A stretch of DNA of 64,000 nucleotides from Eledone cirrhosa (lineage: Eukaryota): contig OZ024747.1 of assembly GCA_964016885.1 (NCBI GenBank), positions 30,752,001 through 30,816,000 on the forward strand, in the 5' to 3' direction. The notes under the pieces were generated by a model. That model worked only from the letters and a program-made list of their open reading frames with translations, searched no databases and was not told the origin of the DNA. Shown here in pieces: positions 3,889 to 64,000 of this stretch. Each line of letters opens with the position of its first letter. Positions within the stretch are counted from its first letter, which is position 1. Position numbers and translations under genes: made by a program.

Positions 3889-6800
3889 ATCATCATCATC
3901 ATCATCATCAACGTTTAACGTCCGTGTTCCACGCTTGCATGGGTTTGGACGGGGGTAGTCCCACTTGAGGCAAGAGTGATTGTCTTGCTCGCATAGGACT
4001 GTCTGGCAGGTTTTCTACAGTTGGATGCCCTTCCTAACACCAACCACATTTACAGTGTGGGTCTGGGAGGTTTTTACCGTGTTGCCTTCACGGCCACATT
4101 ACAGCGTGGACTGTGTGTTTTTTTGTCGTGACACCTACACGATCTCATTTGTTTCGGCCTGGATGGCGCGGCACCAACATAACTTTACATAGAACGGGGT
4201 GGTGTGGATGGGGTGGGGGTGGTGGCGGGACGGGGTGTATTTTGTTAGAGATGCCTACTGGCAAGGCGGGTCTTCTCTGTTACTGAGTACTGCCAAAGGT
4301 CACGGTCCAGTGACATTGTCTTGGAGAGGTGTAAGTGTGTGAGGTCGGAGTTTATCAGCTCATCCCATGTTTTTCTAGGTCTGCCTATTCCGTGGCTACC
4401 GTCTATCTTTATTGCCCTGCACTTTGTAATACAGCTATCGACTTTCATGCGCATCACGTGTCCATACCAACGCAGCCTTCTCTCGAGTAAACAACATCTG
4501 ATCCCTCTTATCTCTAATTTTTTCCTCAGTTCGTTTATGCTTTGCCGTTCACGTATATTACTGTTACACATCCAGCGGAGCATGCAAGCTTCGTTCCTCT
4601 CTAGTCTGCGTATATCCTCTGCACACAATGCCCAGGTCTCACTACCATGCAACATTGCTGTTCGTATGCAGGCATCGTACAACCTGCCTTTCATTTTTAG
4701 GGAGAACCCTTTAGCAGCTAATAGTGGTATAAGCTCTCTGAACTTTTTCCATCCAGTTCTGACTCTAGCTACAGTACTTTCAGAGCACCCTCCCCCACTG
4801 CTGATTTTATCGCCCAGGTAACGGAAGCTGTCCACTATTTCTATAGAACCTTCTGCGCAATTGAAAGAGCTAGTATTTTGTGGGCACTTGCTGCTACTTA
4901 TTGCACCAGAACACCGGCCACATGTAAAGTCTATGTTCTTAGTTAGCTTACCTGTGATCCCACTACATCTTTTATGCACCCATACTTTGCATTTAGGACA
5001 TAAGATGGAGTTTCTACCTACGCCTTTCCTACATACCGAGCACGACCATTTCCCAGAAGGGACCGCCGCCTTGTTTTCTTTCCTACAAACTAGAACTTTG
5101 GTCTTAGCCAGGTTAATTTTAAGTCCTTTTGACTCTAGGCCGTGCTTCCATGTTTGGAATTTCTTCTCTAGCTCGGCCATTGATTCCGCTATGAGTGTCA
5201 GGTCGTCTGCGTATAGGAGTTCCCATGGGCAGCCTGTCTTGAACTCCTCTGTTATAGCCTGAAGGGCAATAATAAATAGTAGGGGGCTGAGAACAGAGCC
5301 CTGATGGACGCCAACTTTTACGCTAAACTCTTCACTATATTCGTTGTTAATTCTAACCTTGCTGACTGTTTCTTTATACATGGCTTGTATAGCCCTCACA
5401 AGCCATTCGTCAACGCCTAGTTTTCTAAGAGCCCACCAGATAATGGAGCGGGGGACTCTGTCGAAGGCTTTCTCCAGGTCGACAAAAGCTAAGTAGAGGG
5501 GTTTACCTTTAGCTAGGTACTTCTCCTGTAGTTGTCGTACTATGAAAAGAGCGTCTGTGGTGCTTTTGCCTGACACAAACCCGAACTGCATTTCATCTAG
5601 ATCAATTCTCTCTCTGATTAGTTGCGCTATTACTTTTTCCGTGACCTTCATGACCTGGTCGATTAATTTAATGCCTCTATAGTTACTCCTATCTAGGGCG
5701 TCTCCTTTACCCTTATAACAGTTAACGATGATGCTGCTATGCCAGTCCTTCGGAACAACCCCATTCTGTACGACTTGATTAACTATGCGGGTGACCATGG
5801 TGTGTCCCACCGTGCCAGATGCCTTCAGCATCTCAGCAACTATTTCCGAAGGCCCAGCCGCCTTACCAGTCTTCATATCCTTGATTGCCTTACTTATTAT
5901 ACTCCCCTCGACTAACACTGCTGGTCCCTCTATCGGGTCGATATGGGGGAGACTGTCTTTCTCCCATTTATTCTCCTCATTTAGTAGCCTTTCATAGTGA
6001 CACTTCCAAGCTACCTTCTTATCAGTGTCGGTGATGGCAAGTATGCCATCATCGTTAAGTACACACTTCTCCCCGACAATATCACGGTTTTCCTTGACGC
6101 ATTGCCTGGCAATCCTGAACACCTCACGTTTTTGGTCATCGCGTTGTAGAACATGCTTGAACTTTCTTTCCTCAGCTTCCCTTCTTGCTAAGTACACTTC
6201 TCTCCTAGCTTCCCTCCTGGCCACTTGATAGTCTACTCTACTTCCCCCATCCCGCCATACTTTCCAAGCCTGCTTTTTGGCCTTAATTGACCCCTCCACC
6301 CTACTGTTCCACCACCATGTTACTCTCCTCCTGCCTACAGGCCTGCTCCAGCCACAGACTTCGTCTGTCGCCAACAGCAGGTTTGCTTTCAGAAATTTCC
6401 ACTGTCCCTCTATATTGTCCGATTCTAGATGCTCTTCCTTACTGTCGAAAGCATCAAGTAATATGCTTTGAAATTTATTTCTGGCTGTGGGGTCCTTTAG
6501 TTTCCATATTTTCCTCCTGAGGATAGTCCTCTTCTGCTGTCGGGTACGTCTCGTCCTGACTATGAGGTCGCTAATTATCAGTCTATGTTGGGAGGTGCAT
6601 TCTTCATGGGGGAGGGATTTAGTGTTTACAACAGACACTCTGTCACGTCTTCTGGTAAGGATATAATCTACCTGGCTTGTGTGTTCCCCGGATCTATAGG
6701 TGATCAGGTGATTGTCACGTTTTTTGAAGTTAGTGTTACAGATAGTTAGGTTATTTGCATCACAGTATTCCAGGATTCTGGAGCCTTCCTCATTTCTAGT

Positions 6801-7510
6801 ACCAAACCCATAGCCTCCATGGATTTCGTCGTAGCCGTCACAATGTTGTCCAACGTGACCATTTAGGTCGCCTGCAATAATTATATAGTCACTGTCAGAT
6901 ATTTGGGAGGTAGTTAGCAACAGTGTCTCATAGAATCTGTCTTTTATAGTGCCGGGCAGTCCGGATTGGGGTGCGTACGCAGATATTACTGTCACCGTAG
7001 TTCTATTGAGGACAAGTCTTATTTTAATTATTCTGTCGTTCACTCTATTTACGTCTATTATCTTATCTGCCCACTTTTCTGCTACCATGATTCCTACTCC
7101 ACCCAGCCCATCGTCGTTTCCCACCCAGAAAAGCTTATAACATCGTTTTTTACCCTCAATGAATCTAGCAGACCCACCCCTCCACCTGGTCTCTTGAATA
7201 CAACAAACATCGACCTCCTTACGTTCAAGCATTTCTACAACCTCGTTAGCGCGACCCTTTAGGGTGCCTACGTTTATGGTACCAACTCTGAAGTTTTGGG
7301 TTGCGTTTGGAGGGTGGGGGTGGTGGGGGGCGGGAGGAGATAGGGTTATGTTAGCCATCCGCGGACGAAACAAAGAGGAGTGCTCGCATTCTCGTCCACG
7401 AGGTGAATTTGACTTTAACTTTGGCATTTTCGCTCTGAGCGTCCAGATTTTTCTCTCCCTTCCACTCTCCGGGATTCCACAGTCCGTCCGTCCATCCATC
7501 CATCCATCAT
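3889..7510 (-). mobile_element. Full-length RTE-clade LINE
   Basis: Single uninterrupted ORF, about 350-bp 3'UTR, tail ...ggacgttaaacgttgatgatgat, (GGAT)/(GGAC) repeats at the 5' end. Confidence 0.95.
4245..7499 (-). CDS. RTE ORF: AP endonuclease, reverse transcriptase and PHD-like zinc finger (1084 aa)
   Basis: APE motifs GTINVGTL, IQETRW, AGDLNGHVG, DYIL, SQHRL. RT motifs QFGF, FVDLEKAFD, GVHQGSVLSP, YADD. CxxC...CxxC...HxxC...CxxC insert. LRWYGHV..RGRPRKTW-type C-terminus. Confidence 0.97.
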   Translation of the reverse strand: MDGRTDCGIPESGRERKIWTLRAKMPKLKSNSPRGRECEHSSLFRPRMANITLSPPAPHHPHPPNATQNFRVGTINVGTLKGRANEVVEMLERKEVDVCCIQETRWRGGSARFIEGKKRCYKLFWVGNDDGLGGVGIMVAEKWADKIIDVNRVNDRIIKIRLVLNRTTVTVISAYAPQSGLPGTIKDRFYETLLLTTSQISDSDYIIIAGDLNGHVGQHCDGYDEIHGGYGFGTRNEEGSRILEYCDANNLTICNTNFKKRDNHLITYRSGEHTSQVDYILTRRRDRVSVVNTKSLPHEECTSQHRLIISDLIVRTRRTRQQKRTILRRKIWKLKDPTARNKFQSILLDAFDSKEEHLESDNIEGQWKFLKANLLLATDEVCGWSRPVGRRRVTWWWNSRVEGSIKAKKQAWKVWRDGGSRVDYQVARREARREVYLARREAEERKFKHVLQRDDQKREVFRIARQCVKENRDIVGEKCVLNDDGILAITDTDKKVAWKCHYERLLNEENKWEKDSLPHIDPIEGPAVLVEGSIISKAIKDMKTGKAAGPSEIVAEMLKASGTVGHTMVTRIVNQVVQNGVVPKDWHSSIIVNCYKGKGDALDRSNYRGIKLIDQVMKVTEKVIAQLIRERIDLDEMQFGFVSGKSTTDALFIVRQLQEKYLAKGKPLYLAFVDLEKAFDRVPRSIIWWALRKLGVDEWLVRAIQAMYKETVSKVRINNEYSEEFSVKVGVHQGSVLSPLLFIIALQAITEEFKTGCPWELLYADDLTLIAESMAELEKKFQTWKHGLESKGLKINLAKTKVLVCRKENKAAVPSGKWSCSVCRKGVGRNSILCPKCKVWVHKRCSGITGKLTKNIDFTCGRCSGAISSSKCPQNTSSFNCAEGSIEIVDSFRYLGDKISSGGGCSESTVARVRTGWKKFRELIPLLAAKGFSLKMKGRLYDACIRTAMLHGSETWALCAEDIRRLERNEACMLRWMCNSNIRERQSINELRKKLEIRGIRCCLLERRLRWYGHVMRMKVDSCITKCRAIKIDGSHGIGRPRKTWDELINSDLTHLHLSKTMSLDRDLWQYSVTEKTRLASRHL

Positions 7511-7546
7511 ATATCGAAAATGGACGTTAAATGGTGATGATAATGA

Positions 7547-21418: not shown

Positions 21419-21627
21419 GTTATACTTGGGGAGGGTCATATTTGTGTAATATTGCCAGAATTAATAACAGAACACACTCACTGTTTGGTTGGTTTTCGCT
21501 TTTCGCTTCTGTGTCTTTTATATCGGTAATCTAATATAATATACTCGGTCCTCAATGTTGCCATTGACTGACCCACGGTCAAAAATAATACAGATACAAT
21601 ATAGACACAAACACATATATATAGTTT

Positions 21628-21669
21628 ATCATAAATCGTTCGTTGCACATCTGCAACATCATCAGTGGT
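21628..21669 (-). ncRNA. Degenerate HHR in the Penelope pLTR (mirror copy 22882-22923 +)
   Basis: CTGATGA-T-GTTGCA(GATG)TGCAAC-GAAC-GATTTA. The other copy reads CTGACGA...AAAA-GATTTA. The consensus of the two restores GAAA. Confidence 0.7.
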
Positions 21670-21959
21670 TCTATTGTTTCCTCCTGTTGAATTGTATGGC
21701 TACGCCATTTTTATTCAGTCTGTCTATATATTTATTTATTTATTTGCTTGTTTGTTTATTTTATTTTGTCTTCTTTGTGCATGCGTTTGCGTGTGTGTAT
21801 AGTGTTTTGTTTGATGTGTGATGTGTGTTCGTGATTGGGTGACTAATGTGTGTTTATGTGTTTGTTGTTATTGTGCTTGTGTATGTATTTATTTATTTAT
21901 TTTATTTTATTTTATTTACTTATTTATACTTCTCTTAGGTCAGTGTTGTTTGTTTGGGT

Positions 21960-22555
21960 GTTGTTCTTATTCCATTCATTCTTTCTGTTTAGTCTTGGTC
22001 TTCTAATTTCTATTTCACTGGCCTCTCTGATTTGCCTATCTGCTGGGTCATTTCTATGTTTAGATATTATTCTAATTTCTATGTTGTCTATGTTACCGTC
22101 ATGTTGTTGTCTGGCATGTTCGTATAGTACTGACCCGTTTTTTCATCCTTTTAGTTCCCCCCAGTGTTGGTCTATCCTTTCACCTATGCTACGAACTGTC
22201 TCACCTATGTATGTTGTTGTCATGTTTCTGCAGGTACCCTCTGTACATCTTATGCTATAGACTACGTTTCTAGTTTTACAGTTTATCTGGGGGTTTACCT
22301 TACATATGATACATTTCCTATTGGTACAGTGGGTTTTCTTAAAAGGGTAGGTTTTGCTGATCAGGGATTTTATGGTGGTTCCTGGCTTTTCTACCACCTT
22401 TATTTTTAAGTGGGTCTTTCTCATGGCCTTTCTACACTGGTTAGCTAATTTCCCTCCAGGGGTAGCGTCCACAAACATGACACTCTGGCATCTCTGGTTG
22501 TCGTACCACGAGGTGGCTTTCCCTATCTTATGTCTAGCCCTATCTAAGCTATTCC
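21960..22555 (-). pseudogene. PLE C-terminal Cys-rich linker plus GIY-YIG endonuclease
   Basis: FVDATPGG, CxxxxCxxC...C, NVVY..C...C...YIGET.R...R...H. Reads through a TGA (22143-22145) into SVLYEHARQQH...RQIREA.EI...PRLNRKNEW (CCHH motif). Confidence 0.9.
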
Positions 22556-23178
22556 ATTAGAAAGAATGAATGGAATAACAACAACACCCAAACAAACAAC
22601 ACTAACCCAAGAGAAGTATAAATAAGTAAATAAAATAAAATAAAATAAATAAATAAATAAATAAATACATACACAAGCACAATAACAACAAACACATAAA
22701 CACACATTAGTCACCCAATCACGAACACACATCACACATCAAACAAAACACTATACACACACGCAAACGCATGCACAAAGAAGACAAAATAAAATAAACA
22801 AACAAGCAAATAAATAAATAAATATAGACAGACTGAATAAAAATGGCGTAGCCATACAATTCAACAGGAGGAAACAATAGAACCACTGACGATGTTGCAG
22901 ATGTGCAACAAAAGATTTATGATAAACTATATATATGTGTTTGTGTCTATATTGTATCTGTATTATTTTTGACCGTGGGTCAGTCAATGGCAACATTGAG
23001 GACCGAGTATATTATATTATATTAGATTACCGATATAAAAGACACAGAAGCGAAAAGCGAAAACCAACCAAACAGTGAGTGTGTTCTGTTATTAATTCTG
23101 GCAATATTACCCAAATATGACCCTCCCCAACAATATTTGTTTCGACACACAATTTCATATAAAAAACCTCGCAAACCT

Positions 23179-23220
<42 letters not shown>

Positions 23221-34264: not shown

Positions 34265-36590
34265 AAGCAAGAGACATACAGGAAGGTGTGGAGAAGAAAG
34301 GTCTGGAAGCTAAAAAACCTTTCACTAAAATACAAATTTAGGAAAGCCCTTCAAGATGTGTATGACGAAAAAGAAGACGATTTAGAGACGTATGACAGAT
34401 AATAACTGGAATTTCTTACGTGACAACTTACAGCAGGCTACTGATGAAATTTGTGGCTGGAGCAGAGCTCCAACCAGACAGAGAGTGATCTGGTGGTGGA
34501 ACAGCACAGTAGATAAGGCCATTAGAGACAAAAGACTAGCATGGAAGGCTTGGAAAAAGGGTGGGAGTAGGGAAGAATATACAGCTGCTAAGAGAGAAGC
34601 TAGACGTCAGGTGTACTTAGCACGCAGGGAGGCTGAGAGTAGGAGGTTTGCTAATGTTCTGCGATGGGAAGATCAGAGGCGTGCAGTGTTTCACATTGCA
34701 AGGCAGTGTGTCAATGCAAATCAGGATGTTGTTGGAGATAAATGTGTCCGGAATGATGCCGGTGTACTTAGTGTCAAGAATGATCAGAAAAAGGAGGCCT
34801 GGAAATGTCATTATGAGAGACTGATGAATGTGGAGAACGAATGGGAGAGAGAGAAATTACCCTCAATAGATCCGACAGAGGGACCAGCTATTGAGATTGA
34901 TGATTATAGAGTCCAAGAGGCGATTAAGGAAATGAAAAATGGTAAGGCTGCTGGACCATCGGGAATAGTTGCTGAGATGCTGAAGGCATCAGGGGACATA
35001 GGCACTAAACTGGTTGCACGCATCATCAATCAGGCTATATATGGTGGTGTCATACCCAAAAACTGGTGCAGCAGTATTCTCTTAAATTGCTACAAAGGTA
35101 AAGGGGATGCTCTGGAGAGGAGCAATTATAGGGGTATAAAACTGATGGATCAGGTTATGAAAGTGGCAGAAAGGATATTAGCACAACTAATTAGAGAAAG
35201 GGTCAAACTAGATGAGATGCAGTTTGGTTTTGTGCCTGGGAAAAGTACAACAGATGCCCTCTTCTTGGTGAGACAATTGCAAGAGAGGTTCTTAGAGAAA
35301 AATAAGCCACTATACTTAGCCTTTGTTGACCTAGAGAAGGCCTTTGATAGGGTACCCCGATCTGTCATCTGGTCGTCCCTAAGGAAACTAGGTGTTGAGG
35401 AATGTTTTGTGAGGACAGTGCAAACTTTGTACAGAGGTACTGTCAGTAAAGTCAGGGTAGGAATGGAGTTTAGTGAGGAATTCCAGATACAAGTAGGAGT
35501 ACATCAAGGTTCGGTCCTCAGCCCGCTCTTGTTCATTATAGTCCTCCAAGCCATAACAGAGGAGTTTAAGACTGGCTGTCCATGGGAACTTCTCTATGCT
35601 GATGATCTGGTTCTGATAGCAGAATCAGTAGAAGAGCTAGGGAATAAATTCCGGCTATGGAAACAGCAGTTGGAAGCAAGAGGACTGAGAGTGAACCTAG
35701 CTAAGACAAAAGTGTTGATGAGTAGAAAAGAGGACAAAACTCCTATTCCATCAGGGAAATGGCCATGTTCGCTATGCAGAAAAGGAACTGGCATAAATTA
35801 TATAAAATGCACTCAATGCAGATCCTGGGTACACAAGAGATGTAGCAGGATAGCAGGCAAACTAACAGGTAGGGAGAAATATGTATGCAGTAGATGTACA
35901 GGGAAATTAGACAGTAGAAGTCGCATTGATAGACACATTTTTCAAATGCAGGTGGGTGCTATAGAATTGGTGGATAGCTTCCGGTACCTAGGAGATCAGA
36001 TTAGCATGGGAGGAGGGTGTTCCGAGGCCATAGTATCTAGAATAAGGACGGGTTGAAAGAAGTTTAGGGAGCTGCTTCCTCTGACGACGAAGGGTTTCTC
36101 CCTGTGTACGAAAGGCCGGTTATATGATGCCTGTGTGAGGAGCGCGATGCTGCATGGTAGTGACACATGGGCAGCAACTGCAGAGGATATGCGACGGCTG
36201 GAGAGAAATGAGGCAAGCATGCTCCGTTGGATATGCAGTGTCAATGTGCGTGACCGACCCAACATGAATGTGTTGAGAGAGAAACTGTGTCTGAGAGGGA
36301 TAGAATGTAGTGTACGGGAGAGAAGACTGAGGTGGTATGGACATGTGCTGCACATGGAGGATGACCGATGGGTGAAGAAGTGCCAGGAAAGGCCAGTTGA
36401 AGGAAGACGTGGTAGAGGTAGACCACGAAAAACATGGGTGGAGGTGGTGAGAATTAACCTCAGATCGCTGAAGCTCACGGTGGAGATGACGAAGGACCGT
36501 GACAAGTGGAGAGATGCTGTGCTGAATAAGACCCATCCCACCCTTGCAAGCAGGGAAGAGCGGACGTAAAATGATGATGATGATGATGAT
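34265..36590 (+). mobile_element. 5'-truncated RTE LINE with PHD insert and a single in-frame stop
   Basis: ORF 34392-36056 with YADD and the Cys/His finger. TGA at 36054 sits at a conserved W; the frame continues to 36569, then (GAT)n. Confidence 0.95.
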
Positions 36591-38460: not shown

Positions 38461-38671
38461 GTCAAAGGATCATTGTTAGGTAGGTTGAATACTTCAAAGG
38501 AAATGGCAATCTTTTCATCTGGTTTTCCTCGGAAAATATAAATGCAATCAAGGTTGATAAAATAAAGGCCAGGATGTCGAGGGGAATTGAATGAACCCTC
38601 TTTGGTTTTCTTACTATCATACAAAAAACTGCACACACCATCTTTGATTGCTTCGCCTGGGATGTTATAAT
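38461..38671 (-). CDS. sol-1: SOL-1-like exon (N-half of CUB domain B)
   Basis: Poly-T tract plus acatag acceptor, gtaagt donor. Phase 1 in, phase 2 out. DYNIPGEAIKDGVCSFLYDSKKTKEGSFNSPRHPGLYFINLDCIYIFRGKPDEKIAISFEVFNLPNNDPLT. Not in the ORF track. Confidence 0.92.
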
Positions 38672-40444
38672 CTATGTAAAAAAAAAAAAAAGATTACAGG
38701 AATATGTGAATAATAGAGATATTTCTGTATAAGAATTTGTAATTACACATAATTTTACAACATAGGAGGTTTATATTACAGTGTGCACACACAATAAAAC
38801 CTAAAACTAATTATTCATATTCAACCAAAATTGCTATATGAACTGTTTGAAAAACTTGTAAGAATTTTGTGGCAACCAATGGGAATATGTAATAAACTAT
38901 ACTGAAAGTTATAGCTGGGGAATTTTAAGCTGTTCCAATATTTTCTATTATTTTGTATTCCCAGTTTGAATACAACAATGAAATTATTAGTGATGTAAAA
39001 GTTTCATAATTTCTATGACACAGATGCATTTAAGATGACAAAATATACATTTAAACACAAGTGTAAACATGCCTTTAATTGTTAAATACAAACATAGTCG
39101 CATGGAAACAATACATTTGGGAAACAATTTATACATTTTGCACTTCCTAAATGGAAGCATGTAATAAAACAAATAACATTAAATATTTAAACTATATCAC
39201 TTTCATAACAAATGCACTTAAAAGAAAAGCAAACATTAACACTGTTCTTTACAGGTGGCCTCAAGATAAAAAAACTATGTAAATAATTTCTTTTGCTACA
39301 CTATTTTAAACAAAGAACATGGATATTCCATTTTATTCCAAAGCAGGAGGTAAGCTATAAAATAACGGTATTGATTGTGTGTGTATATTTGAAAGTAATA
39401 CAATAATTTTATGTTTCAAGAGTATTTCGATAGTGACCTGTTGAATTTCAGAAGGTCTTTTTTACATATTTATATATTATCATCATTCTCAAACATTATA
39501 TGCCCAAACTGGTGCCAATTGTTCAATTGTTTCTATTCTTTGACACTCTCAGCTCGTAATATTCAGAAATGTAAGCAATATCATCTCTCAATCGCATCTT
39601 GTGTCTTTCTACCACCTTAGTCTCCATTCTATGCATAACTTTGTCCATTTGTTGTCATTTATTCAAACCATATGCCCTGTCCATTTCCATTTTCTTTTCC
39701 TAATATGGCTTATGATGTCACACATTTCTATGCTCTCTTATCCACTGACAAGTCTTTCTGTTCTTTTTAATTATTCCTAACATACATCATTCGATATTTC
39801 TTTGCATTTTTCTCAGCTTGTATTCCATGTTCTTAGTCATCAACCATGTCACGTTCACAGATATATGATATAATATACACTTATATATTATATATACAGA
39901 TAAATTATTATATATACATTAATATAACATAATATACAATATCATATTAATATTATGATATCATTTTAAGTTGTACTTCTTAATGTCTTTAACCTAATAT
40001 ATTCCTTCCATATACTGTACCGATTGTGTTGTTATTTCTGTTTACCTTTTATGTACACACACGCACATATACATATATATATATATATAAATGACAACAA
40101 ATGGACAAAGTTATGCATAGAATGGAGATTAAGGTAGTAGAAAGCCACAGAATGAGATTGAGAGATGTTATACATGAAACTGCATCGCCTAGGTGGTGGC
40201 TGATGAGGAGTTGAGATCCTTTTGTTCATTTGTTCACTTTTTTTTTTATGTATATATCTATATATATATATAATAAAGAATTCATATCTAGTAACATATA
40301 TATACATACAAATGCATATCGATGCTCGCAAATATATAGGTTTTGTCTTAATAACATTGTGGTTCAATGCATGGGGTTGCAGAACAATAATATAAGAGAC
40401 GTAAAATAAGAAAATTATAAAATTAACTTACTTACTAAGATATC

Positions 40445-40526
40445 ACTTCCAACTAATTAGTTTCTGGAATGGAGTAGATACATCTTCCGAAGAAGGTGTA
40501 GAGAAACATCCCGTCATCAGGAAAGT
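40445..40526 (-). ncRNA. Type I hammerhead ribozyme (sense to host gene)
   Basis: ACTTTC-CTGATGA-CGGGATG...CATTCCA-GAAA-CTAATTAG (palindrome)-TT-GGAAGT. Confidence 0.85.
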
Positions 40527-41356
40527 CAATTCTCATATAAGTTTCCAGGCAAAGCGAGGACACTGGAAGCTTATTAAAAAATAAATCAGTGAATAGGAAA
40601 TAGCAAAGCGTGGACTTAATTCCTAGCCATTGAGAAAATCACTGCCTCTGTATCCGTGGCAAATTCAAAAAGAATTGAACAAGTGACATCAAGGTCAATC
40701 GGTGGAAAGTGGGTTGTTAATAAGACAGCGGCCAGCCTACTACTGTAGCAGCAGTCATGGCCAGTATTGCTCGACAAAAGATTTGGAGATAATAATAAAG
40801 AATTCATATCTAGTAACATATATATACATACAAATGCATATCGATGACGGGATGTTTCTCTACACCTTCTTCGGAAGATGTATCTACTCCATTCCAGAAA
40901 CTAATTAGTTGGAAGTGATATTTTAGTAAGTAAGTTAATTTTATAATTTTCTTATCTTACGTCTCTTATATTATTGTTCTGCAACCCCATGCATTGAACC
41001 ACAATGTTATTAAGACAAAACCTATATATTTGCGAGCATCGATATGCATTTGTATGTATATATATGTTACTAGATATGAATTCTTTATTATTATCTCCAA
41101 ATCTTTTGTCGAGCAATACTGGCCATGACTGCTGCTTCAGTAGTAGGCTGGCCGCTGTCTTATTAACAACCCACTTTCCACCGATTGACCTCGATGTCAC
41201 GTGTTCAATTCTTTTTGAATTTGCCACGGACACAGAGGCAGTGATTTTCTCAATGGCTAGGAATTAAGTCCACGCTTTGCTATTTCCTATTCACTGATTT
41301 ATTTTTTAATAAGCTTCCAGTGTCCTCGCTTTGCCTGGAAACTTATATGAGAATTG

Positions 41357-41438
41357 ACTTTCCTGATGACGGGATGTTTCTCTACACCTTCTTTGGAAGA
41401 TGTATCTACTCCATTCCAGAAACTAATTAGTTGGAAGT
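41357..41438 (+). ncRNA. Type I hammerhead ribozyme (a 5'-clipped copy lies at 40843-40916)
   Basis: Same fold as 40445-40526. CTGATGA at 41363-41369, GAAA at 41419-41422. Confidence 0.85.
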
Positions 41439-41488
41439 GATATTTTAGTAAGTAAGTTAATTTTATAATTTTCTTATTTTACGTCTCT

Positions 41489-41525
<37 letters not shown>

Positions 41526-43512: not shown

Positions 43513-43700
43513 CAGTGATGAATTCATAGCGTGCCAGAAATCCTCTACCTCGAACAGCCCCATGAGTGTTCAGAATGAGTACTAAGCGTGGGTTTTCGCT
43601 GGTTAGCTCTGGAGGTAACAGCTCTCCACAGAACTTATCATGATATTTCTTGGAGCTTATTTGTCCCTTGAGGTTCACAGCCAAGTAACCAAGCATGCAA
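43513..43700 (-). CDS. sol-1: SOL-1-like exon (C-half of CUB domain A)
   Basis: Acceptor ttttacag, donor gtatgt. Phase 2 matches the previous exon. CMLGYLAVNLKG...DKFCGELLPPELTSENPRLVLILNTHGAVRGRGFLARYEFIT is a CUB C-half (FCG, GF.A.Y). Confidence 0.92.
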
Positions 43701-46974: not shown

Positions 46975-47158
46975 TATGGCATAGAACCAGGAATGTCAAA
47001 GTCCATAAATTTAATGCGAGCCTTTTCTAAGTTTTGTTTATCCATCAGACCATCAATATAATAGTGGCAGGTCACATTGGCTGGAAAGTTGCTATGGTAA
47101 CCTGGAGAGGATATAGTACCATTCGATTCCTTTGAACTTACAACCCGAACGTCACATT
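46975..47158 (-). CDS. sol-1: SOL-1-like CUB-domain protein, internal exon (N-half of CUB domain A)
   Basis: Acceptor tttcag, donor gtaagt. Translates (phase 1) ECDVRVVSSKESNGTISSPGYHSNFPANVTCHYYIDGLMDKQNLEKARIKFMDFDIPGSMP. The CUB start pattern C..GTISSP.Y..N..C.Y and the DGLxDxQNLEK motif recall SOL-1 family proteins. Not in the ORF track. Confidence 0.9.
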
Positions 47159-48215
47159 CTGAAATTTAAATTTAAATATAATTTTAGAAGAATTTGATAA
47201 TTTTATAAATAAGACATCAAATATTCTATTTCTTTGTAATACAAATCGTGTTATACATTAACCGCATCCAAATAACCCATTATCATATATTTACATTGTT
47301 AACTCCCGCTCCACCGGAAAAAAAAACAAAACATTATTATATATTTCTACCAATCAGGGAGCATACAGGCCAAATAGAATTCATTTTCACCAGGAAATGA
47401 AATAGGTAAATAGTCGTATATGCCAAATCCTTCCCTGGGAAAGAATGAACCTTTTAACATAGATTAGTTGTCTGTGGTCTCAGAGTAAGGTCTAAATGGA
47501 TTGAGAGACAAAAGCCTGTCCAGAGAAGGAGGACATGTAAACTGAAAGAATCCTCAACTGGCAGTTTCAATACTGACCAGTCTGTCATGACATGTCCAGT
47601 CGTTGCTAGCAGGGAAAACGGATGCTAGATGGTGATGATTTAGAATCAGTACACCCTAACCTTGCATTTTGTAAGGGGTGATTAAACGGGTTGGCACCAA
47701 CTAATCATAAACCATTCTTTCAAAATGGACCCTATGAAGAGTATGAAAGCTGTCCAGAAGGTTAACCCCTACTATAACAGTGAAAATAACCTTAAAACAC
47801 TTGTTAACTATCTATATCATATCTTTATAATTAGATGACAATGATTATATTCGTTTTAAAAGAAATTATAATGAATTTATTCAGGTATCATTATTGGGCA
47901 GCTTTTAGTAGTAAGAGAATCGAATAACCGTATGAACACCAACAACGATGATAATAATAATATTAATAATAATAATAATAATAATAATTTGACTGGTACT
48001 GCACACGTATTGAGAAGAGCACTATATCTGTAAGATGGATATCCCTCATGGTATTTACATATAGACATGTGTATATATGTATACTGTTTTTTTTTAAATT
48101 ATAATCAATGTGCTGTATTAACTGGCTTACCAATGCACACTGTGAATTTATTTGCCCTAGGTGTCAGGAAGACACTCAGCATATATCTCAGAAACAATAA
48201 TGAAAGAAAATAAAA

Positions 48216-53399: not shown

Positions 53400-56300
53400 T
53401 AGGTGTCTATTGCAGCTTTCTGAAAGTGAACAGAACTTGAGATGGGAAACAGAAAGATTAAGGCAAGAAGAAAGACAATTGCAACAAATGGAGGCTGAAT
53501 GTGAAAATCATGAGAGTTGCGATACAAACACGACAGGCATAAAGGATTCTTCAAGGCAAAATAAACTGGCTAAGAGCTGCGTTTTCATATGATCCATCGA
53601 GAAATTATAGAAATGATCCTAAAGTCGTTATTGGTAGCATGGATAATATATGCAGTAGTTGTGGTGTGAGAAAATGGAAAGGAGAAACACTTGGCATGTG
53701 TTGCTTAGGAGGAAAGGTCAGATTTCCACTGATAGAAGACCCTCCACCTGTTATTCATATACTATTTACAGCCCATAATAATAAAGCTAAACAGTCCAGG
53801 AGCAATGTTATGCGATATAATGCTGCATTTCAGATGACGTCCTTTGGAGCTGAAAAAAATCATACTGACTATGGTTATTTCACATTTAAAATCCAAGGAC
53901 AATGTTACCATTTAATCAACAGTTTACTCCCGCAGCCTATTGAGGAAACAAAATTAATTCAAATTTATTTTTGGGCAACAACGAACAAGAAGCTACTCAA
54001 CAATGCAGAAATATTTCAGGTGGTCTTCAACTACATGTTATTAGCAGTCTGCAAAATATGCTTCATGAAAACTATCATTACATAACAGTATTCAAATTTG
54101 CCTTAGAAAAATAAAGGCAAACCTATGTATAAAATTACTATTAGACCTGATAAAAAACCAACAGATAAAAACACAAAAGATTTTACAATGAACCATTGGA
54201 AGACGAATTGGCTGTATTGATAGTCATTGAACAACATAAATCCAGAGATCTGGCCAATTACGAAGAATTGCAGGCACACAGATCATACGACACTCTTCAG
54301 TATCCTTTGATTTTTTGGAGAGGTCAGAATGGATATAATTTCGCCTTAAGACAAGTAAACCCAAGTACAAGCTAGGAAACTAATAAATTGGTCAGTTGCA
54401 GAATTTTTTATTCATTTCACTTCATGGTAAGAGATTGCTTTAACCATATCCTAAGAATGGGAAATGTACAAGCTAAATTAATGGTTGAGGTTTATGCCAA
54501 GATTGAAGCTGAACGATTGACATTCATTAAAAACAACCAAGCTAAACTTAGAGCAGAGCAATACATCCATTTGAAAGATGCCATTATAACTGATGGAATG
54601 AATCATTCCAGTGTTGGTCAGCCAGTCATTCTGCCATCTAGCTTCACAGGCAGTCCACGCTATATGGCTGAGTGCACACAAGATGCCATGGCATATGTAA
54701 GAAAATTTGGTTGTCCAGATCTTTTCATTACATTTACATGCAATCCTACATGGCCAGAAATTCAAAATGAACTGTTTGAACACCAATATACAAAAGATAG
54801 ACATGATATCAGTGCCAGAGTTTTTAATGAGAAACAGAAGATCTTGATGTGGCTGCTAAAAGATGGACAAATCTTTGGTGAACTAAGATGTTGGCTTTTT
54901 TGAATTGGAGAAAAGAGGTCTTCCTCATTCCTATACGCTAATTTGGTGTTCAGACTACATTCACTCAGATCAAATTGATAAAATCATAAGCGCTGAATTG
55001 CCTGACCCTGATCAAGACCCAGAACTATTTGCCATTATCTCAAAACAAATGATACATGGTCCATGTAGCAGTATCGACCCTATGTGTGTGTGCATTCGAA
55101 ATAACAAATGTGGAAAAAGTCATCCAAGAAACCGTAACTGGTGATGATGGATATCCTCAATACAGATATTCTCAAAACCGAGAAGCCCTCACTGTGGTGG
55201 AAAAACTGCGATTATCAAGATACAAGGTCAAGATGTTCAGGTTGGCAACAATTAGGTTGTTCCCTATAATCCTCTCCTCTCCCAAATCCTTGATGCTCGC
55301 ATCAATTGTGAGTACAGTGCATCAGTAAAATCAATTAAGTATGTTTGTAAATATGACAACAAATGTAGTGATATGGCAGCTTTTATTATTAGTTGTGATA
55401 ACCAATTGAACATACCTAATAGGGAGATATATTTCTAGCAATGAAACCATATGGAGAATCTTTGGTTTTGACACACACAATAGAGACCCAGCGGTAGTGA
55501 ACCTTGCAGTCAATTTGGAAAATGGTCAGAGAGTATATTACAAGGAAGAAAATGCACAATTGATTGCTGCGTCTCTTCCAGATACAACGCTCACTGATTT
55601 TTCTAAGCTTTATCACGAGGTTCCCACATTATACACTATGGGATAAAAATAAATGGAGCAGACGAAAGATAGGCAATCATGTGGATGGCTATCAAGACAT
55701 CAAAGCAAGTGGTGCAATAGGAAGAGTTTACACGATCCAACCTAGACATAGGGAATGTTTCCATTTGAGGTTACTCCTTCACACTGTTACAGGGCCAACA
55801 TCATTTGAAAATATCAAAATTGTACATAGAACTCCCTGTGCAAGGTATGCCGAAGCATGTAAGTTACTTGGCCTACTTGAAGATGGGGAATATTGGAAAA
55901 AGACATTGGAAGAGGCAGCTGCCACACAAATGCCTAAAAAGCTTCAACAGCTCTTCGCTGTAATGCGTACTAGGTGCAATGTTTCAGATCCCTTGAGTAT
56001 CTGGGAAAGCTACGAGAAAGACTTGTCAGAAGATGTATTGCACGGGATAAAACTTCAAAACATTGGCATTAATGTAGATTTTTCTCAACTTTCAGAAATT
56101 AACAACCACCTGAGTGGAATTGGCTTGTCCCTTAGGGATTGTGGTTTACCAGAACCTGAGGACACAGTGCATACTCTATTGCACATGATATATTAAAGGA
56201 GATGAATTATGACATCAACAAGCTTACACAATTTGTCAAATAAAAGGAAGAAAAGCTGATTGAAGATCAAAGAATTGCTTATGAAAGAATCGTCCAGAAT

Positions 56301-57737
56301 GACAGAATGATGGAGGCCTTTACTTTCTGGATGCTCCAGGGGGAACTGGTAAAACCTCCATAATAAATCTCATGTTGGCAAAAGGAAGGCAGTGAAAGCA
56401 AATTGCTTTGGCTGCTGCATCAAGTGGTATTGCTGCTACCTTACTTGATGGAGGCAAAACATCACCCTCAACGTTCAAGTTGCCATTGAATGTCACAAGA
56501 GAAGAGTCTCTTTCATGCAATATCAAAAAGAACGCATCAAAAGCAAAGCTTTTAGAGAAATGCTCTGTGATCATATGGGATGAGGCCACAATGGCACACT
56601 GGAAGTTATTTGAGACTCTGGACCATTCTTTAAGAGACATTAGAGGATGTAATGAAGTCATGGGAGGAGTAACGATGGTGGTTGCTGGTCACTTCAGATA
56701 GATTCTCCCCATCGTTCCTAAAGGCACGAGAGCTGATATTGTAAACACTTGCCTCAAAGTCTGAACTATATGGCAACAAGTCCAGTGATTACCCTTGAGA
56801 ACAAACATGAGAGTGCAGTTTTACAATGATGCAGAAATTGATACTTTTGCAAAACAGTTAATTACACTGGGTGATGGAAATCTGTAACAAGATGAAAATG
56901 GAGAAGTCAACCTTCCATTTGGAAATGTCTGTAATACAACAAATGAATTAATTGATCAAGTATTTCCAAGTGTTGCCTCAAATTATATCAATCAATCATG
57001 GCTGTTTGACTAAAAAATTTAGCACCAAAAAATAATATGGTAAATCAGATCAACCAATGCCTACTGGATACACTCCCAGGAGAGGTTCATACATATGTCT
57101 CCATTGACAAGATTGAAAAGGATGATGATGTTGTTAATTATTCTGCAGAGTTCCTTAATAGTCTGGAACTTCCTGGACTTCCTCCGCACAAATTAATGCT
57201 AAAGATTGGAACTCCCATCATCCTTTTGAGAAACCTGGACCCACCACATCTATGCAACAGCATGTGCTTACCAATGAGGTAGATGATGAAACATCTAGAG
57301 GTCACTATTCTTGGAGGCAATCATCAAGGCAAAAATGCATTTATTCCAAAGATTCCACTTATCCCTTCCTCTACCGAGCTGCTATTCAAATTATCAAGAC
57401 TTCAGTTCCCTGTTATAGCCAGTTTTGCTATGACCATAAATAAAGCTCAGGGTCAGTCTCAAAGTTGTAGGATTGAATCTGAGAGTTTTTACCCATGGAC
57501 AGTTATATGTTGGTTGTTCATGAGTGGGAACATCTAGAAATCTTTATATACTATGCATGAATCGTTAAATAAAGAATCCTGTGTATCTGGAAGTTGTTTT
57601 ACCTTTTTTTATCCCACACCCACCACAGTCTCACCTCATACTGAAAACCAGACAATGCATCCAATACAATCATTTTCTCTTCTACCTGTCATCATTTATC
57701 AATCGTTCACCTGGACGAAGCCCAGTACTTCATCTAG
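53400..57737 (+). mobile_element. Decayed autonomous Helitron (Rep plus PIF1 helicase)
   Basis: CCLGGKV, YNAAFQMTSFG, ILPSSFTGSPRYM, PDLFITFTCNP.W, RGLPH, MIHGPC, FLDAPGGTGKT, SGIAATLL, IIWDE, PIILLRNL, FAMTINKAQGQ. 3' hairpin ctggacgaagcccag followed by CTAG|T at 57734-57737. Confidence 0.93.
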
Positions 57738-62787: not shown

Positions 62788-64000
62788 TGTAGCGACTAGC
62801 ACCACCTTGCCCGGGGAGAAAAAAACTAATTGGAGTTACTTCCCCGTGGCTAGTATATAAGGGAGAATTCTGACGTCATTCGACCTCTCTTAGTCACTCA
62901 CTCTCTTTTGGCGGCTTTTCTCAAACTGATCACATCGAGCACAAGCATGCTAACCTTTCTCCAACCACATCTTATGGTTCAGAATTATACCACGTTATGC
63001 CACGAGGATATTTGTTTACCACGTTTGTTACATGGATACTCGTTTTGAGAAACTTATTATGCTTCAGTCATTACTTCTTGTAGTGAGAGATAATTCTCAC
63101 ATGGTATGAAATTGTATGAAAATTTTCCTATCTCATATTTCTATTAAATTTAGTAGTTGGGTTCCGGTGGTACATACTGGAGTAAGTAACCCTGGGACCA
63201 ACTCACTAAAAGTGGTGACCCCTGCTACTGTCATAAGTCCCGCGTGTTTTATAGCTGCCTCTGGAAACCAGTTTCATTCACTTCTTGCCTCATTTTCCGA
63301 GTTAACTGACATTTCATTTAAACCGAATCAGGTAGTCAACTCAACTCGACAATTTATTACAACAACTGCTCCGCCTGTTTTCTCTCGTCCACGTAGGTTG
63401 GCTCCGGACAGGCTAAAGAAAGCCAGGGATGAGTTCGAACACATGCTTCAGCTTGGTCTTATACGACCATCAACCAGCCCGTGGGCATCTCCACTTCATT
63501 TGGCTCGTAAGGGTGAGGCGGATTTTAGACCTGTGGGTGATTATAGACGACTTAATGCTATCACTACACCTGATCATTATCCTTTACCAAATTTACATGA
63601 TTTTTCATCCGTTCTGCATGGATGCAAAATATTTTCTAAAATAGATCTGGTACGCACTTACCATCAAATACCCATGCATCCAGAAGACATACCAAAAACA
63701 GCTGTGACCACCCCTTTTGGTTCGTTTGAATTTCTGTCTATGTCTTTTGGTTTGCGGAATGCTTCTAGTACGTTCTAACGTTTTATCGATGAAGTCACAC
63801 GTGGATTGGATTTTGTGTTTGCTTACATGGATGATCTCCTGATGGCCAGTGACACAGTTGAACATCATCAGCAACATCTATCTCAGTTATTTCAACGTCT
63901 TCAATCGTACCAGGTCAGAATCAACCCAGCTAAATGTGTGTTTGGTACAGCTTCACTGGAATTCCTTGGACATCTTATAGATTCAGTAGGCATTCGACCT
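62788..64000 (+). mobile_element. Gypsy LTR retrotransposon: 5' LTR (about 62788-63209), PBS and RT, with gag/protease deleted
   Basis: TGTAG start, TATATAA at about 62855, PBS TGGTGACCCC at 63213-63222. RT motifs SPWASPL, DYRRLN, YPLP, FSKIDL..YHQIP, TA.TTPFG.FEF, FGLRNA, then a stop and AYMDD. Runs off the window. Confidence 0.92.

What the first reader, a model, noticed from the sequence alone, without database searches (positions are those of the whole stretch)
40271..41490. Two inverted arms, each a different circular permutation of one 522-nt HHR unit: footprint of a circular RNA template
Seen: the left arm (-) is 522 + about 50 nt and the right arm (+) is 522 + about 125 nt. They start at different points of the same unit, have one HHR per unit, lack a credible ORF, are nearly identical, and have TA on both flanks. 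Inference: greater-than-unit-length, differently permuted copies are most simply explained by rolling reverse transcription around a 522-nt circle (or a tandem multimer). That is longer than typical animal retrozyme monomers and viroid-like in organisation. It also forms a hairpin of over 500 bp in the pre-mRNA.
Basis: partly seen in the sequence, partly recalled or inferred. Interest (0 to 1): 0.9.

Follow-up and report, generated by a model that had tools for sequence, protein, structure and literature searches.

The report
Non-coding Penelope-type hammerhead retroelement insertion
This is a copy of a small non-coding jumping element that carries a self-cutting RNA and inserts the way Penelope-type elements do, and the copying errors it leaves behind suggest that its longer-than-unit copies come from the enzyme jumping across a break in the RNA rather than only rolling round a closed circle.

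Summary
The structure is real. The left arm is 40270-40846 (-, 522+55 nt) and the right arm 40843-41493 (+, 522+129 nt), built from one 522-nt non-coding unit with a type I hammerhead (HHR), inserted in (TA)n inside a CUB-gene intron. It is one of about 2,400 candidate sites of a non-autonomous Penelope-like (non-LTR retrozyme) family.

The permutations are not random. 3' ends sit at two fixed sites (unit 61 and 181), a 120-nt version of the Penelope 'tail'. Two-armed inserts pair one of each (35 of 35; 80 of 90, none same-same).

New: passes within one insertion disagree at unit 472-474 (26 of 120 crossings versus 3.7% elsewhere), whatever the insertion's age, while the HHR cut site is copied cleanly. 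This fits a template end and reverse-transcriptase (RT) jump at an initiator-like site about 49 nt upstream of the cut. A linear, terminally redundant RNA (about 0.5) therefore rivals a covalent circle (about 0.3). No RNA data were available. 522 nt is within published retrozyme sizes, and the longest stem is 457 bp.

The parts
40270..40846 (-). Left arm, unit 127->181, 577 nt (522+55); 3' end at the distal fixed site (unit 181)
40843..41493 (+). Right arm, unit 455->61, 651 nt (522+129); 3' end at the proximal fixed site (unit 61)
40843..40846 (.). 4-nt microhomology joining the 5' ends of the two arms
   Evidence: overlaps of 1-6 nt in 28 of 46 two-armed inserts
41357..41438 (+). Complete type I hammerhead of the right arm: core 41363-41369, stem II 41371-41376/41411-41416, GAAA 41419-41422, palindromic stem III, predicted cut 41432|41433
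   Evidence: sequence; covariation over 8 sister-family rows, 98% of cells paired, 3 pairs with two-sided changes; no Rfam hit
40445..40526 (-). Complete type I hammerhead of the left arm, predicted cut 40451|40450; sense to the host pre-mRNA
40843..40916 (+). 5'-truncated hammerhead at the start of the right arm (first two core bases missing), cut site 40910|40911
40270..40389 (-). 120-nt 'tail' (unit 62-181) between the two fixed 3' ends; terminal on the left arm only
41382..41384 (+). Family-wide per-pass error hot spot (unit 472-474; also at 40860-40862 + and 40499-40501 -); A474 sits in an initiator-like YYANWYY context (consensus recalled) at the base of a conserved hairpin; inferred RNA 5' end or template-jump point
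   Evidence: all three crossings in this copy carry the common allele
40926..40935 (+). Two overlapping GTAAGT splice-donor-like motifs just downstream of the HHR cut (also present in the sister family)
   Evidence: sequence; function not tested
40250..40269 (.). Left (TA)n target flank
41494..41516 (.). Right (TA)n target flank
   Evidence: 232 of 245 canonical 3' ends in the family are followed by (TA)4+
43513..43700 (-). Upstream host exon (CUB domain), context
38461..38671 (-). Downstream host exon (CUB domain), context; smaller exons in between are not excluded

Best explanation
This is a young copy of a non-autonomous Penelope-like element (PLE), i.e. an animal non-LTR retrozyme, moved in trans by a PLE reverse transcriptase-endonuclease.

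Shown from genomic copies: (TA)n targets, two fixed 3' ends 120 nt apart, one of each in two-armed inserts, variable 5' truncation, arms joined by microhomology, one template haplotype for both arms and for repeated passes, and a per-pass error hot spot at unit 472-474.

Inferred, about 0.85: the protein cuts both strands of a TA repeat. Each DNA end primes cDNA on the same RNA, one at 61 and one at 181. Each cDNA runs a variable distance, and the two are joined head to head.

Inferred, about 0.5: the way past unit length is mostly a template jump. The RNA is linear, starts near A474 inside hammerhead loop II, and ends at the next complete hammerhead, so it is about 571 nt with about 49 nt repeated at both ends. 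RT reaches the 5' end, often adds 1-3 untemplated bases, transfers to the 3' repeat of the same RNA (sometimes another RNA) and continues, behaving as if on a circle. Hammerhead-cut linear RNAs, and possibly ligated circles, are further templates.
For: Architecture
- Fixed ends: 295 exact 61-ends and 245 exact 181-ends genome-wide.
- Pairing: 35 of 35 head-to-head pairs on contigs 1-2 are 61/181. 80 of 90 simple two-armed inserts are 61/181, 0 are same-same, and 10 have one other end.
- The same rule holds in the sister family (13 of 17, none same-same, read) and in a coding PLE of this genome (5 readable two-armed inserts among 32 loci).

One template
- Alleles absent from all other insertions are shared between arms 44 of 111 (subfamily A1) and 18 of 99 (A2), and within arms 28 of 83 and 32 of 131 (each site counted in both directions). 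Rare alleles are shared with other insertions only 1.6% (A1) and 3.8% (A2) of the time.

Hot spot
- Position 473 is discordant in 24 of 77 multi-pass insertions, 474 in 10, 472 in 5, 471 in 4, and most neighbours in 0-3.
- Replicated in 17 separately fetched arrays: 11 of 17 at 473 against 3.5% background.
- Per crossing: 26 of 120, versus 401 of 10787 in other 4-nt windows and 5 of 136 at the HHR cut.
- Independent of age: 11 of 26, 8 of 26 and 13 of 26 across divergence tertiles; pair discordance is 34.6% at 473 versus 3.3% at CpG.
- All four bases occur at 473, and the odd pass is T in 8 of 8 polarised cases, as expected from untemplated dA. Passages in PMC11789487 report untemplated purine addition and template jumping for R2 RT.
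- In one mosaic array both haplotype switches map to 471-488.

Literature: PLE RT starts at two internal sites, cuts and extends both strands, and is predicted to be a dimer (PMC11167929). Penelope has an internal promoter with an intron 46 bp after the start (PMC2377424 passages).
Against: - No RNA data, so neither the start site, the cleavage nor any circle is shown.
- Failed jumps should pile up 5' ends at 474, but there are none (0 stops at 472-478, 3.1 expected).
- A genome-wide chimera scan gave no general support: 1 of 12 breakpoint intervals contained 474 (1.1 expected by span), and only that one array had a large gain.
- About 78% of crossings are faithful, and some arrays have many identical crossings (12 of 12 in L267).
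- The common base at 473 also extends the adjacent hairpin, so changes to T have a second explanation (fold-back).
- G at 473 is rare (6 of 140), so cap copying is not supported.
- In subfamily A2 the best-matching other insertion shares rare alleles nearly as often (52.6%) as passes of the same insertion.
- PLE RT has no RNase H (recalled), so transfer would need strand exchange.
- No coding partner with related ends was found; the one coding family examined shows only TA-repeat similarity.
Confidence: 0.5

Rival explanations
1. Covalent circle (first reader; published retrozyme model). Hammerhead cuts release a 522-nt monomer and a host ligase closes it. The PLE protein primes twice on the circle (61 and 181) and rolls with strand displacement. 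The hot spot at 472-474 is then a nick, modification or structure-induced error on the circle.
For: - Precise, frequent passage through the cut site (145 of 160 arms; 250 of 281 exact).
- Private alleles shared by all passes, for example 9 units in L265.
- No barrier at 474, and truncation is roughly uniform round the unit apart from an excess just 3' of the cut site.
- Circle fold z -4.9 against 60 shuffles.
- 39 of 163 insertions hold two complete tandem HHRs and could release a monomer.
- Circles are shown for coral, mussel and axolotl retrozymes, with RtcB ligation in vitro (PMC7229834 passages and discussion).
Against: - It does not predict a base-independent, age-independent error site away from the ligation point.
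- The mosaic array switches haplotype at 471-488, not at the cut.
- A few arms carry a different haplotype in the second pass (L067, L220, L226).
- Several long arrays show periodic shared variants, so part of their length arose after insertion (L267, L268, L270).
Confidence: 0.3
2. Linear read-through transcripts of genomic tandem copies, not cut by the hammerhead, serve as templates, as proposed for the anole PLE. Greater-than-unit arms simply copy a tandem source.
For: - In vitro, uncut RNA is the dominant substrate and HHR mutants insert normally (PMC11167929).
- Tandem arrays exist.
- Occasional second passes of another haplotype and a period-2 array (L270) fit heterogeneous tandem sources.
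Against: - Pass-to-pass differences are not recurrent outside the hot-spot region (292 of 309 seen once).
- Five insertions with the same hot-spot pattern share no rare alleles.
- It gives no source for new errors at 473, or for private alleles common to all passes, without an earlier monomer-to-multimer step.
Confidence: 0.12
3. The unit is only the pseudo-LTR of a longer coding PLE, and these are 5'-truncated copies of it.
For: The end architecture is the same as in coding PLEs (PMC8557442, PMC3846280 passages), and earlier scan notes found such cases in other genomes.
Against: - None of the 163 parsed insertions is listed as continuing into a reading frame; long arms repeat the unit up to 9-11 times instead.
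- Queries with the whole arm, the unit's middle and a tandem array all return about 2,400 candidates. These searches score only the best 40, so a rare coding parent could be missed.
Confidence: 0.05
4. Assembly artefact or post-insertion rearrangement (fold-back, gene conversion, unequal crossing over) made the inverted, longer-than-unit structure.
For: No listed short-read contig spans the locus, and some long arrays were amplified after insertion.
Against: - The arms differ in sequence and permutation.
- The strict 61/181 pairing holds over many loci.
- Some arm pairs do not overlap at all, so one cannot be a fold-back of the other (e.g. L145).
- The hot spot does not scale with age.
Confidence: 0.03

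Closest known systems
Animal non-LTR retrozymes (Cervera and de la Pena 2020, PMC7229834: abstract, passages, discussion read; Li et al. 2026, bioRxiv 10.64898/2026.07.22.740005: parts 1-3 of 5 read)
   Same: Non-coding, low-GC (36%) unit with one type I hammerhead; monomer-to-multimer tandem copies; dispersed at thousands of sites; co-occurs with coding PLEs; length within the 51-972 bp range of Li et al.
   Different: Longer than the 170-400 nt RNAs of Cervera 2020. Most copies are 1-1.6 units or two-armed inverted inserts rather than arrays. Circular RNA and cleavage were not testable. Fixed paired ends and a per-pass error hot spot were not in the parts I read.
Endonuclease-bearing Penelope-like elements, insertion architecture (Craig et al. 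2021, PMC8557442 passages; Arkhipova et al. 2013, PMC3846280 passages; Frangieh et al. 2024, PMC11167929 parts 1-2 of 4)
   Same: Partial tandems, an inverted 5'-truncated copy joined head to head, an optional tail on one end, (TA)n targeting, and two internal RT start sites downstream of the hammerhead.
   Different: No ORF. The tail is 120 nt rather than 30-40 nt. The papers describe the tail as optional or often on one end, whereas here the pairing is strict. They leave the origin of tandems open (multi-copy mRNA, circle, or antisense self-priming).
PLE minimal hammerheads (Cervera and de la Pena 2014, PMC4209133, parts 1-2 of 4)
   Same: Long helix II, unpaired base 5' of stem II, short helix I, palindromic helix III. 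That paper already notes pairs of hammerheads 100-700 bp apart on opposite strands and proposes circular templates for more-than-unit reverse transcription.
   Different: Helix III here can form 3 bp as a monomer, and loop II holds an extra covarying hairpin that starts at the hot spot.
R2 retrotransposon template jumping (PMC11789487 passages) and LTR-element minus-strand transfer (recalled)
   Same: Untemplated additions at a template's 5' end followed by continuation on another template position leave site-specific mismatches; a terminal repeat lets upstream sequence be regenerated.
   Different: Here the jump would be mostly intramolecular, repeatable, length-preserving, and bounded by a ribozyme-made 3' end. 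It is a working resemblance only, not membership.
Hammerhead viroids and plant LTR retrozymes (abstract listings, passages; otherwise recalled)
   Same: Non-coding, structured, hammerhead-bearing unit.
   Different: Ribozyme seen on one polarity only, branched fold, DNA copies made by target priming, no LTR/PBS/PPT noted. Not a viroid-like replicon on present evidence.

Membership tests
Animal non-LTR retrozyme | Type I hammerhead in each repeat unit | tested here: met
   Core and three helices present; 98.1% of cells paired, two-sided changes in stems I and II over 8 chosen sister-family rows; no Rfam hit
Animal non-LTR retrozyme | Tandem copies with at least two complete hammerheads at some loci | tested here: met
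   39 of 163 insertions (19 of 119 in the end-selected set); arrays up to 9-11 units. This locus has one complete hammerhead per arm
Animal non-LTR retrozyme | Non-coding, no LTR | tested here: met
   Six-frame translation of the circularised unit closed; no Pfam hit on the unit's frames
Animal non-LTR retrozyme | Self-cleavage of the RNA | tested here: inconclusive
   Indirect only: 18 of 165 arms stop at first meeting with the cut site versus 7.3 expected, but a few are mis-parsed sister families and several end in a TA microhomology at unit 8-11
Animal non-LTR retrozyme | Expression as circular RNA | not testable with these tools
   No RNA holder listed
Penelope-like element (non-autonomous) | Two fixed 3' ends defining an optional tail | tested here: met
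   Ends at unit 61 and 181; tail 120 nt, longer than the published 30-40 nt
Penelope-like element (non-autonomous) | Partial tandems plus head-to-head inverted 5'-truncated copy | tested here: met
   90 simple two-armed, 64 one-armed and 9 complex of 163
Penelope-like element (non-autonomous) | Insertion into AT-rich or (TA)n microsatellite targets | tested here: met
   232 of 245 canonical 3' ends followed by (TA)4+ (most loci were selected on that junction, but the 60 not so selected show the same)
Penelope-like element (non-autonomous) | Terminal sequence shared with an autonomous PLE | tested here: inconclusive
   One abundant coding family examined; no similarity beyond TA repeats; other families not surveyed
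Autonomous Penelope-like element | RT plus GIY-YIG reading frame | tested here: not met
Viroid-like RNA replicon | Ribozymes on both polarities and RNA-to-RNA replication | tested here: inconclusive
   Only one polarity seen to carry a hammerhead (no systematic ribozyme scan of the minus strand beyond Rfam); replication not testable

The most novel reading that the evidence does not exclude
Penelope-type elements rebuild their 5' end and their tandem pseudo-LTRs by a repeatable strand transfer. Transcription starts inside hammerhead loop II, the next hammerhead makes the 3' end, and the short terminal repeat between them works like the R region of an LTR element. A dimeric enzyme primes both broken DNA ends at two different fixed sites of the same RNA. 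The error hot spot at unit 472-474 would be a genomic footprint of that jump.
Probability: 0.45. Interest if true: 0.8.

Novelty: new variant of a known kind. Interest (0 to 1): 0.6.

Why it matters
The element is of a known kind, but its short unit makes it an unusually clean record of an unsolved mechanism. How Penelope-like elements make tandem pseudo-LTRs, inverted copies and tails is stated as open in PMC8557442 and PMC11167929, and the circle model for retrozymes has been proposed without evidence from insertion products in the parts I read.

This family gives three measurable rules: one end of each type per two-armed insert, one RNA haplotype for both arms, and a discrete per-pass error site away from the ribozyme cut. 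Together they set up one cheap experiment (map RNA ends, test RNase R resistance) that separates a true circle from a jump. If the jump is right, it links Penelope replication to LTR-style strand transfer and changes how retrozyme arrays are read. If the circle is right, the hot spot marks an unexplained lesion on the circular RNA.

Tried and rejected
- Rfam at gathering score and at E<=5: no hammerhead. The isolated 101-nt ribozyme region does not fold into the active form by minimum free energy (z -0.8).
- RNA evidence: no RNA holder listed. The four runs laid behave as genomic DNA contigs and say nothing on expression.
- Partner search: the coding PLE family with a fragment in the window (26,719 candidates, frames up to about 1,200 aa) has its own hammerhead and ends, and no similarity to the unit. 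Pfam found no family in it, so it is called a PLE from recalled motifs.
- Hot spot in that coding family: too few two-copy inserts to judge. More full-length copies were not examined.
- An apparent ordered difference at position 478 was an alignment artefact of a 1-nt length difference.
- Random permutation of ends: rejected.
- Nine identical passes as proof of rolling: weakened by arrays with periodic shared variants.
- Chimera scan for switches at 474 or at the cut site: uninformative beyond one array.
- Lariat branch point at 474: rejected, since no GT follows. A second hammerhead cutting at 472-474: no matching stem III seen by eye. A-to-I editing: cannot give changes to T. Post-insertion hypermutation: rejected by age independence. 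Cap-derived G: too rare to claim.
- Rows dropped before counts: 217 parsed groups were reduced to 167 by removing duplicates and near-duplicates, and to 163 by removing 4 cut by locus edges. A few diverged sister-family copies remain in that set.
- Earlier scan notes: nothing for this genome or sequence.
- Literature searches for strand transfer, template jumping or twin priming in PLEs or retrozymes returned no paper describing these rules by title or abstract. The one relevant hit (PMC3846280) invokes template jumps only for captured inserts. The library lacks most subscription papers, the Terminon paper was not held, and no supplementary files were read; those of the bioRxiv preprint are closed and may list such families.
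Full report
1. Observation. The structure is as described, with refined limits. I number the unit from the predicted hammerhead (HHR) cut: position 1 = window 40911, position 522 = 41432. The right arm (+, 40843-41493) is unit 455->61, 651 nt. The left arm (-, 40846->40270) is unit 127->181, 577 nt. The arms overlap by 4 nt, lie between (TA)n runs and differ at 5 of 390 compared sites. The circularised unit has no long frame, is 36% GC, and folds at -124.9 kcal/mol (z -4.9 against 60 dinucleotide shuffles) into a branched structure about 63% paired. The longest inverted stem is 457 bp, not over 500. The insert lies between two minus-strand CUB exons with canonical splice sites, so it is probably intronic.

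2. The ribozyme. Rfam finds nothing, probably because loop II is 34 nt long. The core, GAAA, a palindromic stem III and stem I are present. Over 8 rows that I chose from sister families, 98.1% of cells pair and three pairs change on both sides; the rows are related, so this is support, not proof. The motif matches the description of hammerheads in Penelope-like elements (PLEs): long helix II, unpaired base before it, palindromic helix III (PMC4209133). There are two complete copies and one truncated copy at this locus.

3. The family. The own genome (3.0 Gb) gives 2,449 and 2,377 candidate sites for the arm and for the unit's middle; only the best 40 are scored, at 93-100% identity. Two subfamilies occur, about 97% and 92% to this copy. 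A sister family with a 543-545 nt unit (71.7% over 658 nt) has about 2,300 candidates, and more diverged ones were seen. None of the parsed copies is listed as continuing into coding sequence; long arms repeat the unit (up to 4,860 and 5,800 nt).

4. The ends are fixed and paired. 3' ends fall at unit 61 or 181 and run into (TA)n, with 295 and 245 exact junction matches genome-wide. On contigs 1 and 2, all 35 head-to-head pairs among 92 and 86 listed ends are one 61 with one 181 (about 3e-11 if ends were independent). Among 163 non-redundant insertions, 90 are simple two-armed: 80 are 61/181, 10 have one other end, and none is same-same. Independent short-read contigs show loose ends into TA at the same unit positions. 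The sister family follows the rule in 13 of 17 two-armed inserts, and a coding PLE of this genome in the 5 readable cases among 32 loci. This is the PLE tail, which reflects two internal RT start sites (PMC11167929) and is usually 30-40 nt on one end of an inverted structure (PMC8557442, PMC3846280). Here it is 120 nt. The 'different permutations' are therefore two fixed starts plus random 5' truncation (median arm 328 nt, 56 of 183 end-selected arms over one unit).

5. One RNA haplotype per insertion. Passes of the same insertion share alleles seen in no other insertion: between arms 44 of 111 (subfamily A1) and 18 of 99 (A2), within arms 28 of 83 and 32 of 131. Rare alleles are shared with other insertions 1.6% and 3.8% of the time. 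The best-matching other insertion reaches 30% and 53%, so the rare-allele test is weak in A2. Differences between passes are mostly one-off (292 of 309). Arms cross the HHR cut in 145 of 160 cases, exactly in 250 of 281 crossings. Gene conversion cannot be excluded for every case, and several long arrays were evidently amplified after insertion. A minority of arms stop at the cut site (18 of 165 against 7.3 expected, with caveats), a weak sign that cut linear RNAs are also copied.

6. An error hot spot away from the cut. Passes within one insertion disagree at position 473 in 24 of 77 insertions, at 474 in 10, at 472 in 5 and at 471 in 4, against 0-3 at most neighbours. Seventeen separately fetched arrays repeat this: 11 of 17 at 473 against 3.5% background. 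Per crossing the rate is 26 of 120, versus 3.7% for other 4-nt windows and 5 of 136 at the HHR cut (Fisher p 6e-13 and 1e-5). It does not rise with age (11 of 26 in the youngest third) and is ten times the CpG rate, so it arises during insertion. All four bases occur, length is nearly always kept, and the odd pass at 473 is T in 8 of 8 polarised cases. Two sister-family arms differ at the homologous bases. In one mosaic array the template haplotype switches twice, both times within 471-488, while alleles stay linked across the HHR cut. A474 lies in a YYANWYY context in both subfamilies (consensus recalled; the homologous site in the sister family does not match), 64 nt before a splice-donor-like motif. 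Penelope has an internal promoter with an intron 46 bp after its start (PMC2377424).

7. Mechanism. The PLE protein is reported to cut and extend both strands and is predicted to be a dimer (PMC11167929). I infer that it breaks a TA repeat and primes one DNA end at 61 and the other at 181 on one RNA. The two cDNAs join by microhomology (overlaps of 1-6 nt in 28 of 46), and each templates the other's second strand (about 0.85). For passage beyond one unit I favour, at about 0.5, a linear RNA from about 474 to the next complete hammerhead, with a 49-nt terminal repeat. RT adds untemplated bases at the 5' end and transfers to the 3' repeat; R2 RT is reported to add untemplated purines and to jump templates (PMC11789487 passages). 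Against this: no 5' ends pile up at 472-478 (0 versus 3.1 expected), the chimera scan shows no general enrichment (1 of 12), most crossings are faithful, T at 473 also extends the neighbouring hairpin, and there is no RNA evidence. A covalent circle with an unexplained lesion stays at about 0.3, read-through tandem RNA at about 0.12, and the templates may be mixed.

8. Comparison and novelty. It works like, and on the testable features is, an animal non-LTR retrozyme or non-autonomous PLE. Circular RNA, cleavage and the mobilising partner are untested or not found. Size is not unusual (51-972 bp). Opposite-strand hammerhead pairs and the circle hypothesis are in PMC4209133, and the PLE origin of animal retrozymes is argued in the 2026 preprint. 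What I did not find in the searches listed (titles and abstracts, plus passages of PMC3846280) is strict pairing of the two ends, one-template origin of both arms, or a per-pass error site. Earlier scan notes on other genomes read similar inserts as PLE architecture; I did not test them.

9. Verdict. It is a new variant of a known kind, with interest 0.6, because the family's insertion products turn an open question about PLE replication into a direct test.

Noticed in passing
window 21419-23183: Two-armed head-to-head insertion of a coding Penelope-like family in (TA)n, with GIY-YIG-like end, its own hammerhead and 3' ends 526 and about 570 nt after the stop. The family has 26,719 candidates and frames up to about 1,200 aa with an asparagine-rich stretch. 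Candidate helper, unrelated in sequence to the unit.
   Followed up: partly
window 38461-38671, 43513-43700, about 46977-47165 (minus strand): Exons of a multi-CUB-domain host gene; the element sits between two of them.
   Followed up: partly
window 39578-39662 and 40087-40171: A separate 85-nt inverted repeat (92%) just left of the element, next to very high-copy sequence at about 39990-40100 and a CTGATGA motif near 40200. Possibly another decayed two-armed insert.
   Followed up: no
L113, L115, L107; L214, L215, L146, L152: At least two further sister families share hammerhead stem III and the region downstream of the cut but have different stem II pairs and loop II hairpins.
   Followed up: partly
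L264 (1961-nt arm): Tandem array built from two haplotypes in the order X, Y, Y, X, with both switches at unit 471-488.
   Followed up: yes
L267, L268, L270: Long arrays with periodic shared variants (period 2 in L270), pointing to amplification after insertion or a dimeric template; two are on a small contig.
   Followed up: partly
L030, L199, L273: A minor third 3' end at unit 155, inside the unit's own TA run.
   Followed up: no
L092:270-1565: 431-aa fragment of a second, different Penelope-like clade by recalled motifs; ends not examined.
   Followed up: no
window 4245-7526 (-), 34386-36569 (+), 53543-56688, 63110-63778: An open 1,093-aa LINE-like frame, a broken relative, helitron-like fragments and a gypsy-like RT fragment, named from recalled motifs.
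   Followed up: no
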